Positions 46,677 to 52,683 of a DNA stretch of 64,000 bases are shown here, one piece after another. Positions within the stretch are counted from its first letter, which is position 1; every line of letters begins with the position of its first letter. The notes below the pieces were generated by a model. It made no database searches and was not told the DNA's origin. It worked only from the letters and a program-made list of their open reading frames with translations. This DNA is from Candidatus Heimdallarchaeota archaeon (lineage in GTDB: Archaea; Asgardarchaeota; Heimdallarchaeia; JABLTI01), in NCBI GenBank assembly GCA_018238155.1, contig JABCTZ010000001.1:51691-115690 (forward strand). Reading direction: 5' to 3'. Position numbers and translations under genes: made by a program.

Positions 46677-48188
46677 ATGGAAGATGAGATAATGGTTGAT
46701 AGCAAACTCGAAGAATTTGATAATGGATTAGAATTGAATGGAGTAAATCAAGCAGAGATCGTACAAGAAGAGAAAAAGAGATTTAGAGATTTTTTATTCT
46801 TCTTTTCAGGTCAACAGATTTCGATATTAGGTTCCTCTGTAGTATCATTTGTGCTTATTTGGTGGATGTCAGAAACCACTCAAAGTGAACTTATGCTAGG
46901 TTTGGCTGCATTAGCTAGTTTAGGTCCATTTCTACTAGTAGCTCCATTTTCTGGCGTTATTGCTGATAGAGCTAAAAGAAAACCATTATTGTTTACCGTT
47001 GATACAATTCAAGCTCTATTTACTGTTATGCTTACGATTATTTTTATGATATTTTATGTACCAAATCCTGCAGATCCAACACAGATATCAAATAAAACAC
47101 TGCTAATTGTGAGTGTTTTTATCACTTTAGGTTTGCGAGGCGCGATGCAAGCTTTCCATTCTCCTGTAGTAAGTGCTTTGATTCCAACAATGGTCCCTCA
47201 AAAACACCTTGGTAGAATGAATGGTGCAGCTTATCTTGTGAGTGGTGTAATTCAAGTTATTGGTCCAGCTTTGGGTGCGTTGTTATTGAATATATTTGAT
47301 CTAAGTTTAACAATGTGGATTGATGCTATTACTTTCGCAATTGCAGTCATTCCATTATTATTGATTAAAATACCTTCACCTGTTCAACAAGAAAAAAAAT
47401 ATCAATCAAAATTCTCTGCTCAATTCAAAGAAGGTTTTACTGTAATTAAAGACATAAAAGGATTATTGGCGATTATGATTGGTGCTACTTTAATCAACTT
47501 CTTCTTTTCTCCAATAAGCACTCTATTACCGTTATTTGTTAGTAAAGTTCACGGAGGTACAGAGGTGAATTATGCTCTTGTTATTGGGTTCATGCAAGTT
47601 GGAATAATACTTGGTGGTCTTTTTATGACTTTTTTCAAGGGATTCAAAAATATGATAAGAGCTGTTTTGGTTTGTGTGCTGATATTATTTGCAGCAGAGG
47701 TCGCACTTGTATTTGTTCCAGTAACGTTGCCAATTAGATTCTGGCTCATTGGTTTAATCCTCTTCATTGGGATGATTCCTAATCCAATGGCAAATGTTAG
47801 TTTCAGTACTTCTTTACAACTTATTATTCCAAAAGAAAAAATGGGTCGAGTAAGTTCTACAACAATGTTTATGTCTATGGCAATATCTCCAATTGGAATG
47901 TTCTTATCAGGTTTAATAGGTGAATATGTTTCTATTGGAATTCTATTTGCTGTTTCAGGAGTTTTGGGTGCAATTATTTTCCTAGCAATTTACTTCTTTA
48001 CACCGGCAAAACACTTAGATGATTCTATTAAATTAAAAATCGCTGAATTAGCAAAAGAAAAAGAAGAATCCTCTAAAGCACTTAATAGTTCCAAAGACAT
48101 TTTTGATAATACATCTGAATTAAAGCAACCATTGGAACCTTATGTTCTAGATAAGGATATTAGAATTGGTGATTCAACAATGGAATAG
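46677..48188 (+). CDS. MFS transporter (MefA/DHA3-like)
   Basis: GQ.IS.LGS, GVIADR..RK, VPQKHLGR and IP.E.MGRV motifs. Confidence 0.88.
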   Translation: MEDEIMVDSKLEEFDNGLELNGVNQAEIVQEEKKRFRDFLFFFSGQQISILGSSVVSFVLIWWMSETTQSELMLGLAALASLGPFLLVAPFSGVIADRAKRKPLLFTVDTIQALFTVMLTIIFMIFYVPNPADPTQISNKTLLIVSVFITLGLRGAMQAFHSPVVSALIPTMVPQKHLGRMNGAAYLVSGVIQVIGPALGALLLNIFDLSLTMWIDAITFAIAVIPLLLIKIPSPVQQEKKYQSKFSAQFKEGFTVIKDIKGLLAIMIGATLINFFFSPISTLLPLFVSKVHGGTEVNYALVIGFMQVGIILGGLFMTFFKGFKNMIRAVLVCVLILFAAEVALVFVPVTLPIRFWLIGLILFIGMIPNPMANVSFSTSLQLIIPKEKMGRVSSTTMFMSMAISPIGMFLSGLIGEYVSIGILFAVSGVLGAIIFLAIYFFTPAKHLDDSIKLKIAELAKEKEESSKALNSSKDIFDNTSELKQPLEPYVLDKDIRIGDSTME

Positions 48189-48242
48189 TTTTTCATTTAA
48201 ATTATATACAAAACTTTTTAGTAATAAGTAGAAATAATTGGC

Positions 48243-48326
48243 TTGGAGAATGATGATACAACGCCCCAGCCTGACGGCGCCTCCACGCCACAAAAATGAT
48301 GAGCATGCGACGAACTGACTCCTCAA
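48243..48326 (+). ncRNA. Box C/D sRNA (dual 2'-O-methylation guide)
   Basis: C ATGATGA 48250-56, D' CTGA 48271-74, C' ATGATGA 48296-302, D CTGA 48315-18; terminal stem GGAG/CTCC; GC-rich island in an AT-rich spacer. Confidence 0.88.
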
Positions 48327-48437
48327 TTTGTATTTTGTTTTTTCTTTTGATTTACTAAGATAAAACACTACTAACAAACACTAAAATAAAAGTTTTAAAT
48401 CAAAACAATTTCCTCATAAGATAATTGAGGTCACAAT

Positions 48438-49046
48438 ATGAAATTCTATCTAATTAGGCATGGTCAAAGTGAAGATAACATAAACAAAGTAGTATCTGGT
48501 CATAGAGCAACACCCTTAACTGATTTAGGGAGAGAACAAGCACAATCTTTAGGTCAACAAATCTTAGAAAAAAGAATAAAGTTTGATGTTGCTTATTCGT
48601 CTGATTTGAAAAGAGCTTCAGAAACAGCTACTATAATATGTAACGACCTTGGTATTGAAAATATTATTTTTGATAAAAGATTGAGAGAAGGAGATTCAGG
48701 AGATTTCACCGGAAAGTTATCAGCAGATTTTACAAAAGAAGAGAGAGAATATTTTGATTCATTATTAGTAAATCTAAAAGAGAAAATTATTGGTGGAGAA
48801 AGTAATTATGATATGACTGTGCGGATACAAGAAGCATTTTATGAAGTTGTAGAAAATAACCCAGAGAATTCTACAATCTTACTTGTTGGTCATGGTGGAA
48901 CTTTGTATCATATTTTGGTTTTAATCTTAAATCTTTTGCCGAGAAAATTAGATGAATGGTTTGGAAACTGTATGTTAAACGTTCTTGAAAGAGATTCAAA
49001 AAGTGATCCATGGAAACTTTCTATGCTCAATAACAAAAAATTATAA
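48438..49046 (+). CDS. Histidine phosphatase (phosphoglycerate mutase family)
   Basis: RHGQS, SSDL.RA, LRE, GGES and HGG motifs. Confidence 0.93.
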   Translation: MKFYLIRHGQSEDNINKVVSGHRATPLTDLGREQAQSLGQQILEKRIKFDVAYSSDLKRASETATIICNDLGIENIIFDKRLREGDSGDFTGKLSADFTKEEREYFDSLLVNLKEKIIGGESNYDMTVRIQEAFYEVVENNPENSTILLVGHGGTLYHILVLILNLLPRKLDEWFGNCMLNVLERDSKSDPWKLSMLNNKKL

Positions 49047-49084: not shown

Positions 49085-50206
49085 TTAAGTTGCTTTTTTC
49101 TTTGCTATTTTAACCAAAGAGCGAATTGTACCTGAGACTTTCATAATATGAAATAGAACCCGTTCATTTTCAATCTCTGTTATGAATGAAAAGACCGCTC
49201 TGATTGATTGTAATGAATGATTTGTGCAGCGAATAATTCCAATTTGACTTTCTAAATCATAGTGTGAGAAATATAAACCAACTCTAGAACTTCCAACGGA
49301 CCCAAAATGATAACCGATTTCTTTCCACACTAGATCTTCAATTTGCTTCTTTTCGTATTTAGTATTTTTCTGTGAAAGAATTTCAAAGAGAACATATCTC
49401 TGTCTATCTAATCTTCTTTTTTCTTTAGACTGTTTAATGAATTCTACTGGTAAATCATCAAGTTCAATCTCAACATCAGATATCTTTTTCTTTTTGAATT
49501 TAGTTTCTTTTGGTGATTGATTCTTACTTTTCTTCCAGATGCCTGTTGCAATGAATTCATCGCCGAGTTTTTTCTTATTCAGTTGTATTCTTTCATAAAA
49601 TGCTTTCATACAATCTTTAGTTCTCAGTTCTGGGACTCCAATAAGATTACCTAATGCAATAATTGAACGCAAATCTCTTAGATCATACGGATTTTTTGCT
49701 TTTGTAGTAAAAATAAAAGGTGCTCTTTGTTTTAGTATTAATCTCATTACTCTTGCTAATTTATGCAGAATAATCGATTTTCTGTCTGCTGAATGTATTA
49801 TTGAGCTTAGGTCTATTTCAAGAAAAGTTTGATTTGTTGCTGCAACATTTGCTAATTGTTCAGATATTATCTCTTTTATTTTTGAGACAGGAATTGATAG
49901 AATGTCAACTCTATTATCTTTTACTACCCACTGAGCGATTTTTGCATCTATAGTGGTCACACTCAATATTTCACATTGCTTTCTTTCTTTTGAAAGAAAA
50001 TCTCGTACTTTATTTAGATTTGGAATATTGATATCCTTTCTTGAAAAATGTTCAACGGTCTTTTGTGTTTCAGCACTTTTTCCATCTTTGATTGAAAAAT
50101 CACAAATTGCATAACCAGTAATTCCTAAACGTGAAGCAAAAGTATCAAATTCAAGCATTAATTTCTCATTTTCAATATATACTGTTGGTTCAACGAAAGG
50201 AATCAT
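49085..50206 (-). CDS. Fused RNase P proteins Rpp30 (N-terminal) and Pop5 (C-terminal)
   Basis: N part: RVDIL, LEI, A.NPYDLR..R. C part: RYVLFEI, FG..G, GIIRC, VSGTIR. Position after rpl15e-DUF54 matches the archaeal exosome superoperon order. Confidence 0.85.
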   Translation of the reverse strand: MIPFVEPTVYIENEKLMLEFDTFASRLGITGYAICDFSIKDGKSAETQKTVEHFSRKDINIPNLNKVRDFLSKERKQCEILSVTTIDAKIAQWVVKDNRVDILSIPVSKIKEIISEQLANVAATNQTFLEIDLSSIIHSADRKSIILHKLARVMRLILKQRAPFIFTTKAKNPYDLRDLRSIIALGNLIGVPELRTKDCMKAFYERIQLNKKKLGDEFIATGIWKKSKNQSPKETKFKKKKISDVEIELDDLPVEFIKQSKEKRRLDRQRYVLFEILSQKNTKYEKKQIEDLVWKEIGYHFGSVGSSRVGLYFSHYDLESQIGIIRCTNHSLQSIRAVFSFITEIENERVLFHIMKVSGTIRSLVKIAKKKAT

Positions 50207-52345: not shown

Positions 52346-52683
52346 TGGAGTAAATAATAGTCCTCTTTCTGTTTTGAGGATCACCTTGCGATGAGCTCCT
52401 CTCACGGTATCAATCTACGCGCTCAACCCGCTTCTCCTGGCAAGTCATTGAAGCCAATTTGAGCTTGCTTCCGCGATGATGGGTCGTTTCAACGTTTAAT
52501 ATACGACAGACTCAACAAAGCTTCCGAAGACGCCGTGTATCATTGCTAAAATCGGTATCACGTATCGTTTCTATTCCCAGAGCCAAGATTTCGCTTGACA
52601 GCTTTCACTGTATCGCTTGCCTGGAAGAAAGGACCTTCCTCAGATGCTAACGAGAGCACCCGGAAACCGTTTAATCTACTCCA
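52346..52683 (-). ncRNA. rnpB: RNase P RNA, archaeal type A
   Basis: Minus strand: P1 UGGAGUAGAU/AUUUACUCCA; CR-I GAGGAAGGUCC; AGAAAC; UGAAAC; GCAAG; CR-V AACAGAAAGAGGACUA. Confidence 0.93.

What the first reader, a model, noticed from the sequence alone, without database searches (positions are those of the whole stretch)
48243..48326. Unannotated C/D box sRNA predicted to guide 23S P-loop Gm2251
Seen: four perfect boxes, a terminal stem, and an extra hairpin (GGCG-CCTCCA-CGCC) in a 21-nt D'-C' spacer, longer than in typical compact archaeal sRNAs. The D' guide CGCCCCAGC is complementary to GCUGGGGCG. Known: this is the conserved LSU P-loop, and the +5 rule lands on G2251 (E. coli numbering), which is snoRNA-guided in eukaryotes and RlmB-modified in bacteria. 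Inference: the D guide GCATGCGACGAA may target the 5' strand of helix 89 (about U2460); this second target is much less certain.
Basis: partly seen in the sequence, partly recalled or inferred. Interest (0 to 1): 0.7.

Follow-up and report, generated by a model that had tools for sequence, protein, structure and literature searches.

The report
Heimdallarchaeal dual-guide box C/D sRNA
This is a genuine, conserved methylation-guide RNA of an Asgard (Heimdall-group) archaeon that points the fibrillarin enzyme at two spots in the catalytic heart of the large ribosomal RNA; it is an ordinary kind of RNA, with an unusual extra hairpin.

Summary
Window 48243-48326(+) carries consensus C, D', C' and D boxes, a GGAG/CUCC stem in K-turn geometry and a GGCG/CGCC hairpin in a 21-nt D'-C' spacer. 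This four-box pattern occurs once in the 4.08-Mb genome and never in a reversed-genome control.

The D' guide pairs 9 bp with the host's own 23S P-loop and puts G2251 (E. coli numbering) at +5. The D guide pairs with the 5' strand of helix 89 and puts U2460 at +5.

The RNA is present in 10 of 12 genomes of its family, in conserved synteny and behind a conserved BRE/TATA-like element. Boxes and guides are invariant while flanks drift.

A compact orthologue in a sister family keeps the P-loop guide. Its D guide differs from ours at three positions, each matched by a change in that family's own H89.

The spacer hairpin co-varies around an invariant UCCAC loop, is specific to this family, and resembles eukaryotic snoRNA stems that make extra rRNA pairs. 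The nop5-fibrillarin pair and L7Ae are encoded.

Verdict: a new member of a known kind. No expression or methylation data were available.

The parts
48209..48221 (+). Candidate BRE/TATA promoter element (CAAAAC-TTTTTAG)
   Evidence: A TTTTTAG-like element (variants CTTTTAG, TTTAAAG, TTTTTCA) ends 23-25 nt before the GGAG stem in every family member although the surrounding flank diverges. The spacing fits an archaeal TATA box centred about 27 nt upstream of a start near 48243-48245. The promoter role is inferred from conservation and spacing only.
48243..48326 (+).
   Evidence: 16 distinct homologues align end to end (A2). Covariance model R1 scores 86-104 bits in family members.
48245..48248 (+). 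5' strand of terminal K-turn stem (GGAG), followed by the 3-nt bulge AAU
   Evidence: Pairs with CUCC 48319-22 and is invariant in the family. It is replaced by compensatory GGGA/UCCC and UGGC/GCCA in Helarchaeota and DPANN versions; helix 1 is 98.8% paired with 3 of 4 pairs changed on both sides.
48250..48256 (+). Box C (AUGAUGA)
   Evidence: Only position 5 varies in the family (U/C/A/G).
48257..48270 (+). D' guide (14 nt here, 12 nt in most relatives); 48262-48270 pairs with 23S 2247-2255, and nucleotide +5 (C48266) faces G2251
   Evidence: Guide positions 2-9 are invariant in 16 sequences.
48271..48274 (+). Box D' (CUGA)
   Evidence: Invariant.
48276..48289 (+). Spacer hairpin GGCG / CCUCCA / CGCC, with the invariant loop motif UCCAC at 48282-48286
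   Evidence: MFE -6.3 kcal/mol, reached by 3 of 500 shuffles. The stem changes by compensatory substitutions (UGGC/GCCA, GACG/CGUC, UGGU/ACCA, GGU/ACC). All three core pairs show changes on both sides.
48296..48302 (+). Box C' (AUGAUGA)
   Evidence: The UGAUG core is invariant.
48303..48314 (+). D guide (12 nt); pairs with 23S 2457-2464 and 2466-2467 (5' strand of H89), and nucleotide +5 (A48310) faces U2460
   Evidence: Positions 2-11 are invariant in the family. Guide/target co-variation with family f2.
48315..48318 (+). Box D (CUGA)
   Evidence: CUGA in 14 of 16 distinct members and CCGA in two.
48319..48322 (+). 3' strand of terminal stem (CUCC)
48327..48349 (+). T-rich tract (TTTGTATTTTGTTTTTTCTTTTG), candidate archaeal terminator
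   Evidence: Read from the sequence. T-runs follow the gene in several but not all relatives. Inferred.

Best explanation
The locus is an independently transcribed, roughly 80-nt box C/D sRNA of a Heimdall-group Asgard archaeon. With L7Ae bound to its C/D K-turn and its C'/D' motif, and Nop5-fibrillarin dimers on each guide, it should direct 2'-O-methylation of two 23S rRNA nucleotides in domain V. The D' guide targets G2251 in the P-loop of helix 80. The D guide targets U2460 in the 5' strand of helix 89. Because the two targets lie 210 nt apart in sequence and both surround the peptidyl-transferase centre, the RNA probably also holds these segments open and together during large-subunit folding, a chaperone role. 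The 18-22 nt D'-C' spacer in this family forms a 3-4 bp hairpin that starts right after box D' and carries an invariant UCCAC loop. Its role is unresolved; my best guess is an accessory rRNA contact or a stabiliser of the internal C'/D' motif. Shown here: the boxes, the geometry, both complementarities on the host's own rRNA, conservation, co-variation and the protein genes. Inferred: transcription, RNP assembly, actual methylation, the chaperone role and the hairpin's function.
For: (1) All four consensus boxes plus a K-turn-compatible stem; the pattern is unique in 4.08 Mb with 0 hits in the reversed genome. (2) The D' guide makes 9 Watson-Crick bp with the only genomic GCUGGGGCG outside the gene, in the 23S, and +5 = G2251 by alignment to E. 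coli rrlH. (3) The D guide makes 8 contiguous WC bp plus 2 more after one mismatch on the 5' strand of H89, with +5 = U2460. It is the top rRNA hit in the host; in four same-genus relatives with complete 23S it is the top hit in three and a close second in G005, and the 3' domain missing from the host contig holds nothing better. (4) 10 of 12 family genomes carry it. In 16 distinct sequences the boxes, D' guide positions 2-9, D guide positions 2-11 and the GGAG/CUCC stem are invariant, while flanks and spacer vary and total length runs from 79 to 85 nt. (5) The sister-family (f2) orthologue has a D' guide pairing 10-11 bp with its own P-loop at the same +5. Its D guide ACUCACGACGAA pairs 11 bp with its own H89 strand GUUGUCGUGGGU in the same register. 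Relative to f1, positions 8, 9 and 12 changed on both guide and target, and cross-pairings are worse. (6) Pair counts: 92.6% of cells paired against 75.2% in shuffles (0 of 500 reach it), and 6 of 7 pairs show changes on both sides. (7) A conserved TATA-like element lies 23-25 nt upstream, and synteny is conserved (MFS transporter, then the sRNA, then a convergent Rpp30-Pop5 gene). (8) An intact adjacent nop5-fibrillarin gene pair and L7Ae are encoded. (9) Weak Rfam matches are all C/D families; the best is snoU31b, whose consensus carries the same CGCCCCAG guide before its D' box. (10) The Gm2251 equivalent is sRNA-guided in haloarchaea and snoRNA-guided in eukaryotes (PMC11542601) and was predicted in 3 of 7 archaea studied (PMC4644070). 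The same paper proposes that double guides with nearby targets act as folding chaperones.
Against: There is no transcript, RNP or methylation evidence. Taken alone, neither complementarity is statistically strong: shuffled guides reach the same score on about 4.3 kb of rRNA in 26 of 200 and 23 of 200 trials, so the case rests on conservation, co-variation and the identity of the sites. The D-guide duplex has mismatches at positions 1 and 10. No Nm at the U2460 equivalent appears in the plant, yeast, human or P. abyssi table I read. The co-variation contrast rests on two lineages (f1 against f2), which is essentially one evolutionary comparison. Only 20 tRNAs and no 5S rRNA were found in the assembly, so a non-rRNA target for the D guide is not excluded. 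The 7-8 nt between the hairpin and the GAUGA of C' does not fit a canonical 3-nt K-turn bulge.
Confidence: 0.8

Rival explanations
1. It is a real C/D sRNA that methylates G2251, but the D guide is a non-methylating anchor or chaperone arm: it pairs with H89 without directing a methyl group to U2460.
For: The D duplex is short and interrupted: 8 WC bp, a mismatch at position 10 and another at position 1. No Nm is recorded at this position in the comparative table read. Dennis et al. describe double guides where one arm pairs but does not methylate, and a chaperone role for guides with nearby targets (PMC4644070).
Against: The pair at the target position (+5, A-U) is Watson-Crick in both f1 and f2, and positions 2-9 are fully paired, which meets the usual relaxed criterion for double guides. 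In f2 the duplex is 11 bp.
Confidence: 0.15
2. The D guide's real target is another RNA (a tRNA, 5S rRNA or other ncRNA missing from the assembly), and the H89 match is fortuitous.
For: The assembly is about 91% complete, only 20 tRNAs and no 5S rRNA were found, and shuffled guides reach the H89 score in 12% of trials. Guide positions 10-11 are invariant in f1 although position 10 is mismatched to H89.
Against: The same site is the top or second-best hit in five f1 23S genes and, with three compensatory changes, the top hit in f2. A fortuitous match would not be expected to co-vary in register. The best tRNA matches are weak, 6.25 against 8.5.
Confidence: 0.04
3. It is not an RNA gene: either a chance cluster of box-like words in an intergenic spacer, or part of the 67-codon minus-strand ORF 48174-48377.
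For: An ORF of 67 codons with a TTG start overlaps the locus on the minus strand. UGAUGA and CUGA words are common in AT-rich DNA.
Against: The four-box pattern occurs once in the genome and never in the control. Conservation is confined to boxes, guides and the stem. Family members differ by 1-6 nt in length within the spacer and D' guide, which breaks any reading frame. Stems co-vary.
Confidence: 0.01

Closest known systems
Haloarchaeal C/D sRNA guiding 23S Gm1950 (Haloarcula marismortui numbering; equivalent to E. coli Gm2251), and the G2251-directed sRNAs predicted in three of seven archaea by Dennis et al. 2015
   Same: An archaeal fibrillarin/Nop5/L7Ae guide RNA aimed at the same universally important P-loop guanosine (PMC11542601 table 1; PMC4644070).
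   Different: I did not have those sequences, so homology is untested. This family sits in Asgard archaea, pairs the P-loop guide with an H89 guide, and in family f1 has an 18-22 nt structured D'-C' spacer instead of the usual short loop.
Eukaryotic SNORD31 / U31 / snoU31b (Rfam RF00089, RF01285), whose consensus carries the same CGCCCCAG guide
   Same: The same guide core, CGCCCCAG, lies immediately upstream of a D'-type box in the 5' half of the RNA. snoU31b is the best Rfam match (23.3 bits, E 0.033).
   Different: The score is well below the gathering threshold (37 bits). The similarity is largely forced by the invariant target, so common descent is not shown. That U31/SNORD31 guides the yeast Gm2619 / human Gm4196 site is my recollection, not something I read here; the review I read lists those sites without naming their guides.
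Yeast snR70-type snoRNAs with a D'-C' stem whose conserved loop makes extra base pairs next to the target (van Nues et al. 2011, PMC3116282)
   Same: A short guide duplex (8-9 bp in f1), a stem between D' and C', and a conserved loop. The loop UCCAC is complementary to 23S G2235-G2239 (4 WC + 1 G.U), 8 nt upstream of the D' duplex, on the side that geometry allows.
   Different: The 5-bp match has roughly a 6-10% chance expectation by my estimate. The one loop variant (G010, UCCCC) is not matched by an rRNA change. No functional test exists. This is a resemblance, not a demonstrated mechanism.
Bacterial RlmB, the stand-alone Gm2251 methyltransferase
   Same: The same modified nucleotide.
   Different: A protein-only enzyme with no guide RNA; it is only a functional analogue.

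Membership tests
Archaeal box C/D sRNA (guide RNA of the L7Ae-Nop5-fibrillarin sRNP) | Box C (RUGAUGA) near the 5' end and box D (CUGA) near the 3' end | tested here: met
   AUGAUGA at 48250-56 and CUGA at 48315-18; conserved in 16 homologues.
Archaeal box C/D sRNA (guide RNA of the L7Ae-Nop5-fibrillarin sRNP) | Internal D' and C' boxes | tested here: met
   CUGA at 48271-74 and AUGAUGA at 48296-302, both consensus.
Archaeal box C/D sRNA (guide RNA of the L7Ae-Nop5-fibrillarin sRNP) | K-turn geometry: a canonical stem directly 3' of box D and a 3-nt bulge before the GA of box C | tested here: met
   GGAG-AAU-GAUGA ... CUGA-CUCC. The stem is 98.8% paired with compensatory changes in outgroup versions. 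Actual L7Ae binding was not tested.
Archaeal box C/D sRNA (guide RNA of the L7Ae-Nop5-fibrillarin sRNP) | Guide spacers of about 12 nt between C and D' and between C' and D | tested here: met
   The D guide is 12 nt in all members. The D' guide is 12 nt in 13 of 16 distinct sequences and 14 nt in the window and its two closest relatives.
Archaeal box C/D sRNA (guide RNA of the L7Ae-Nop5-fibrillarin sRNP) | About 9 bp or more of guide complementarity to a stable RNA, with a Watson-Crick pair at +5 from D or D' | tested here: met
   D': 9 WC bp, +5 C-G2251. D: 8 WC + 2 bp, +5 A-U2460, which meets the relaxed double-guide criterion of PMC4644070.
Archaeal box C/D sRNA (guide RNA of the L7Ae-Nop5-fibrillarin sRNP) | Partner proteins encoded in the genome | tested here: met
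   A Nop5 ORF (420 aa) directly followed by an intact fibrillarin ORF (232 aa); two L7Ae-family hits.
Archaeal box C/D sRNA (guide RNA of the L7Ae-Nop5-fibrillarin sRNP) | Short (about 3-9 nt) D'-C' loop forming a K-loop; typical of the family rather than strictly defining | tested here: not met
   The spacer is 21 nt here and 17-22 nt across family f1, with a hairpin. The f2, DPANN and some other Asgard orthologues have 3-5 nt. This is a departure in architecture, not in the defining boxes.
Archaeal box C/D sRNA (guide RNA of the L7Ae-Nop5-fibrillarin sRNP) | Expressed as a small stable RNA, and the target nucleotide carries 2'-O-methyl | not testable with these tools
   No transcriptome or modification data were available.
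Rfam snoU31b / SNORD31 (RF01285, RF00089) | Score at or above the family's gathering threshold | tested here: not met
   23.3 bits against 37 for snoU31b, and 14.9 against 40 for SNORD31. It shares the guide and so probably works on the same target, but it is not filed as a member.

The most novel reading that the evidence does not exclude
In this Heimdall family the P-loop guide shortened to 8-9 bp while the D'-C' loop grew into a hairpin. The hairpin's invariant UCCAC loop may make accessory base pairs with pre-23S rRNA. One candidate partner is GUGGG at 2235-2239, just upstream of the P-loop target. The other is UGGAG in the family-specific 70-nt expansion at the tip of H89. That would be the 'extra base-pairing' architecture so far described only for eukaryotic snoRNAs, arising in the closest archaeal relatives of eukaryotes. 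A second C/D sRNA in the same genome (contig C7) also has a hairpin abutting its D' box, so this could be a lineage-wide, eukaryote-like style of C/D RNA.
Probability: 0.2. Interest if true: 0.6.

Novelty: new member of a known kind. Interest (0 to 1): 0.42.

Why it matters
Gm2251 is one of very few ribose methylations found in all three domains. It is made by a protein enzyme in bacteria and by guide RNAs in archaea and eukaryotes. I found no paper in the held library that catalogues C/D guide RNAs in Asgard archaea, so this gives a well-supported, conserved example with both targets assigned. It can seed a covariance model for annotating these genomes. The guide/target co-variation at H89 is a clean natural experiment showing that the second arm is under selection to pair. 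The structured D'-C' spacer, shared with at least one other sRNA in the genome, hints that Heimdall-group C/D RNAs may be drifting towards the eukaryotic snoRNA layout, which bears on how snoRNPs evolved. None of this changes the known mechanism.

Tried and rejected
(1) Shuffled-guide controls against host rRNA were not significant on their own (26 of 200 and 23 of 200), so I did not rest the case on raw complementarity.

(2) A relaxed guide-first census (any C-like box, a 9-mer rRNA complement, a D-like box) gave 189 hits against 105 in the control. That is noise, so it is unusable as a census. My early impression that this is the genome's only C/D sRNA was wrong. Earlier first-reader notes led me to two more candidates with non-consensus boxes. 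The claim that stands is that this is the only locus with four consensus boxes.

(3) Exact-match patterns suggested the sRNA was absent from the other Heimdall families. The covariance model then found the f2 orthologue, which had been missed because its P-loop guide contains a G.U pair. Absence elsewhere is therefore not shown.

(4) Helarchaeota Hel_GB_B has a related D guide (AAAUCGCAACGAU), but its MAG has no 23S. Against the H89 of a relative it pairs in the same register with a mismatch at position 6. This is inconclusive.

(5) The DPANN versions' D guides gave only imperfect matches, one near E. coli 2438. Not pursued.

(6) The 5S rRNA was not found and only 20 tRNAs were found, so non-rRNA targets were only partly screened.

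(8) A look-up of earlier findings by sequence found nothing.

(9) The hairpin as a canonical K-turn C-stem: the stem abuts the D' GA as required, but 7-8 nt rather than 3 separate it from the GAUGA of C', so I did not adopt that reading as primary.

Full report
WHAT IS THERE

Window 48243-48326 on the plus strand reads: UUGGAG-A-AUGAUGA (C) - UACAACGCCCCAGC - CUGA (D') - C GGCG CCUCCA CGCC ACAAAA - AUGAUGA (C') - GCAUGCGACGAA - CUGA (D) - CUCC UCAA (parsed). The terminal stem is best read as GGAG (48245-48) with CUCC (48319-22). It starts directly after the GA of box D and is separated from the GAUGA of box C by three nucleotides (AAU). From established knowledge of kink-turns, that is the geometry bound by L7Ae.

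The locus lies in a 249-nt gap between an MFS-transporter gene (46677-48188) and a histidine-phosphatase gene (48438-49046). An Rpp30-Pop5 fusion gene sits on the opposite strand at 49085-50206.

IS IT MORE THAN CHANCE?

The genome is 4.08 Mb, 32.8% G+C, in 46 contigs. A descriptor requiring C, a 10-15 nt guide, D', a 2-30 nt spacer, C', a 10-13 nt guide and D matches once, at this locus. It matches nothing in the reversed (not complemented) genome. Looser versions gave 2 hits against 0, 6 against 2 and 8 against 0, and this locus was the only hit with G+C-rich guides.

Rfam reports nothing here at gathering thresholds. With permissive thresholds, eight of the twelve weak matches in the 401-nt stretch searched are C/D families. 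The best is snoU31b at 23.3 bits, whose consensus carries the same CGCCCCAG guide before its D' box.

THE ORGANISM AND ITS MACHINERY

The window contains an archaeal RNase P RNA. Contigs from other genomes that carry the same sRNA are titled Candidatus Heimdallarchaeota. The genome encodes a Nop5 ORF (420 aa) immediately followed by an intact fibrillarin ORF (232 aa), plus two L7Ae-family proteins.

TARGET OF THE D' GUIDE

The 9-mer GCUGGGGCG, the complement of guide positions 1-9, occurs once in the genome outside the sRNA gene. That copy is in the 23S gene at G000:C1:136389-136397. Aligning the host 23S to E. coli rrlH (locus) puts it at positions 2247-2255. The nucleotide paired with the fifth guide base upstream of D' is therefore G2251.

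This P-loop guanosine is methylated by RlmB in E. coli, by fibrillarin plus an sRNA in Haloarcula marismortui (Gm1950), and by a C/D snoRNP in Arabidopsis; the equivalent yeast and human sites are also methylated (PMC11542601). A guide for it was predicted in three of seven archaea studied by Dennis et al. (PMC4644070).

TARGET OF THE D GUIDE

An unbiased scan of 16S, the available 23S and 20 tRNAs, allowing G.U pairs and mismatches, gives one best site: GUCGUCGCAGGC at E. coli 2456-2467, the 5' strand of helix 89. Guide positions 2-9 and 11-12 are paired and U2460 lies at +5.

On its own this is weak, because shuffled guides reach the same score in 12-13% of trials. The host 23S is also cut at the contig end. 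I therefore fetched four complete 23S genes from same-genus genomes. The same site is the best match in three and a close second in the fourth, and nothing better appears in the 3' domain.

CONSERVATION

BLAST, pattern and covariance-model searches find the RNA in 10 of 12 genomes of its GTDB family (two genera). The two genomes without it are 69% and 84% complete. Metagenome and species-level scans add more copies, giving 16 distinct sequences.

In their alignment the boxes, D' guide positions 2-9, D guide positions 2-11 and GGAG/CUCC are invariant. Flanks, guide position 1 and the spacer vary, and total length ranges from 79 to 85 nt, which rules out a conserved reading frame.

A TTTTTAG-like element preceded by an A-rich run ends 23-25 nt before GGAG in every member. 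This is the spacing of an archaeal TATA box for a start at the first nucleotides of the RNA. The promoter role is my inference.

Synteny is conserved across both genera: MFS transporter, then the sRNA, then the convergent Rpp30-Pop5 gene.

CO-VARIATION THAT SETTLES THE SECOND TARGET

Covariance model R1 also detects a 65-nt RNA in a sister family, f2, in six genomes. Its layout is GUGGC-N-AUGAUUU-[12]-CUGA-[4]-UGAUGA-[12]-AUGA-GCCAC.

- Its D' guides (GACCGCUCCAGU, AACCGUCCCAGA) pair 10-11 bp, including one G.U, with that family's own P-loop, again with G2251 at +5.
- Its D guide ACUCACGACGAA has its best match on its own 23S at the H89 5' strand GUUGUCGUGGGU, in the same register (9 WC + 2 G.U).
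- Compared with f1 (guide GCAUGCGACGAA, target GUCGUCGCAGGC), three positions changed on both partners: position 8 (G-C to A-U), position 9 (U-A to C-G) and position 12 (G-C to A-U).
- Each guide fits the other family's target worse; the f2 guide on the f1 target gives two adjacent mismatches.
- The 3' strand of H89 co-varies too.

This is one lineage contrast, not many independent events. Even so, a fortuitous match would not be expected to track its target in register. I now rate pairing of the D guide with H89 at about 0.8, and actual methylation of U2460 at about 0.6. No Nm is listed at that position in the plant, yeast, human or P. abyssi table; the nearest is Arabidopsis Cm2837, which I estimate by offset at about E. 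coli 2468.

THE SPACER HAIRPIN

In f1 the D'-C' spacer is 17-22 nt and folds into a 3-4 bp hairpin that begins at, or one nucleotide after, box D'. For G000 the MFE is -6.3 kcal/mol, reached by 3 of 500 shuffles. It is lower than the shuffle mean in all 16 sequences, though marginally so in some.

The stem changes by compensatory substitutions: GGCG/CGCC, UGGC/GCCA, GACG/CGUC, UGGU/ACCA and GGU/ACC. The loop keeps UCCAC in 15 of 16 sequences. On the model-based alignment, 92.6% of cells pair against 75.2% in shuffles (0 of 500 reach it), and all three hairpin core pairs show changes on both sides. That alignment is fitted to the structure, which favours it; even so it left several sequences one column out of register, so the hairpin figure of 82% is conservative.

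Orthologues in f2, in DPANN archaea and in some other Asgard genomes have 3-5 nt spacers. The hairpin is therefore a derived feature of f1.

Its function is open. Two observations are suggestive but weak.

- Van Nues et al. showed that eukaryotic snoRNAs with the shortest guides often carry a D'-C' stem whose conserved loop pairs with rRNA next to the target (PMC3116282). Here the f1 D' duplex is only 8-9 bp, against 10-11 bp in hairpin-less f2. UCCAC is complementary to 23S G2235-G2239 (4 WC + 1 G.U), 8 nt upstream of the duplex on the geometrically allowed side. I estimate a 6-10% chance expectation.
- f1 23S rRNAs carry a roughly 70-nt structured insertion in the tip of H89 that f2 lacks. 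Its 3' strand contains UGGAG(G), also complementary to the loop.

Neither idea is tested.

CONTEXT IN THE GENOME

This is not the only C/D sRNA. Prompted by earlier unverified notes, I located two more candidates with non-consensus boxes.

- One is on contig C7, with boxes GUGAAGA and CGGA. Its D guide is complementary to H69 with A1913 at +5, and its 30-nt D'-C' spacer forms a 6-bp hairpin abutting D'.
- The other is on contig C41, with a D guide complementary to UUACCCCAG.

Structured D'-C' spacers may thus be a habit of this lineage.

COMPARISON WITH WHAT IS KNOWN, AND VERDICT

The RNA meets every sequence-level criterion of an archaeal box C/D sRNA. It departs only in its long structured D'-C' spacer. 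It works like the haloarchaeal Gm1950 guide and like eukaryotic U31/SNORD31, but it does not reach any Rfam threshold, so I file it as a new family within a known kind. I found no paper in the held library that catalogues C/D sRNAs of Asgard archaea.

Confidence that it is a functional C/D sRNA is about 0.97; that it guides Gm2251, about 0.9. Interest is moderate. The kind and the main target are textbook. The H89 co-variation and the eukaryote-like hairpin in a Heimdall-group archaeon are the parts a specialist would look at twice.

Noticed in passing
G000:C1:136603-136717 (host 23S, outside the window); also L082-L085: The 23S rRNA of this genus has a roughly 70-nt AT-rich insertion in the tip of helix 89: 114 nt between anchors, against 44 in E. 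coli and 43 in sister family f2. It is conserved in five genomes, with compensatory changes in its basal stem (CUCUCCAG / CUGGAGG) and a conserved inner motif. It looks like a structured expansion segment at an unusual site near the peptidyl-transferase centre. The Asgard expansion-segment paper I checked does not mention H89.
   Followed up: partly
L083 (G010), L085 (G005), L108 and L109 (G012, G041): 23S at E. coli ~2449-2452: Some relatives carry a 190-350 nt insertion in the PTC core (around A2451), ending 4-6 nt upstream of the D-guide target. Its ends can form GGGG/CCCC and GGAAUG/CAUUCU helices around a UAA bulge, so it may be an archaeal-type rRNA intron. 23S gene lengths in the genus range from 3,259 to 4,282 nt, so further insertions exist.
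   Followed up: partly
G000:C7:342987-343062 (minus strand): A second C/D-like sRNA with non-consensus boxes (GUGAAGA ... UUGA ... CGGA) and a 5-bp terminal stem. Its D guide UCAUAGUUACU is complementary to H69 (A1913 at +5), and its 30-nt D'-C' spacer forms a 6-bp hairpin abutting D'. Found by following an earlier first-reader note.
   Followed up: partly
G000:C41:~326741-326822 (minus strand): A third C/D-like sRNA: GGC-A-AUGAUGU ... CUAG ... AUGAUCG-AAAUCUGGGGUAA-CUGA-GCCA, followed by a T-run. Its D guide is complementary to 23S UUACCCCAG (about E. coli 2437-2445).
   Followed up: partly
L093:724-802 (minus strand; metagenome contig Ga0307376_10000070): A degenerate second copy of the sRNA (40.7 bits) lies about 800 nt from the intact one. 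All four boxes are decayed and the P-loop guide is mutated, so it is probably a pseudogene left by a local duplication.
   Followed up: no
window 49085-50206 (minus strand) and 52346-52683 (minus strand): An Rpp30-Pop5 fusion ORF (Pfam RNase_P_p30 plus Rpp14/Pop5 in one 373-aa frame) lies about 2 kb from the RNase P RNA gene (RF00373, 125.5 bits). The fusion gene is the conserved convergent neighbour of the sRNA across both genera.
   Followed up: partly
L068 (DATKZI010000044.1) and L078 (RDOE01000173.1): Contigs carrying the f1-type sRNA are labelled Bathyarchaeia and Promethearchaeota in their records. The second sits in a genome of a family where only 1 of 135 genomes has the sRNA. These look like mislabelled or mis-binned Heimdall-group contigs.
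   Followed up: no
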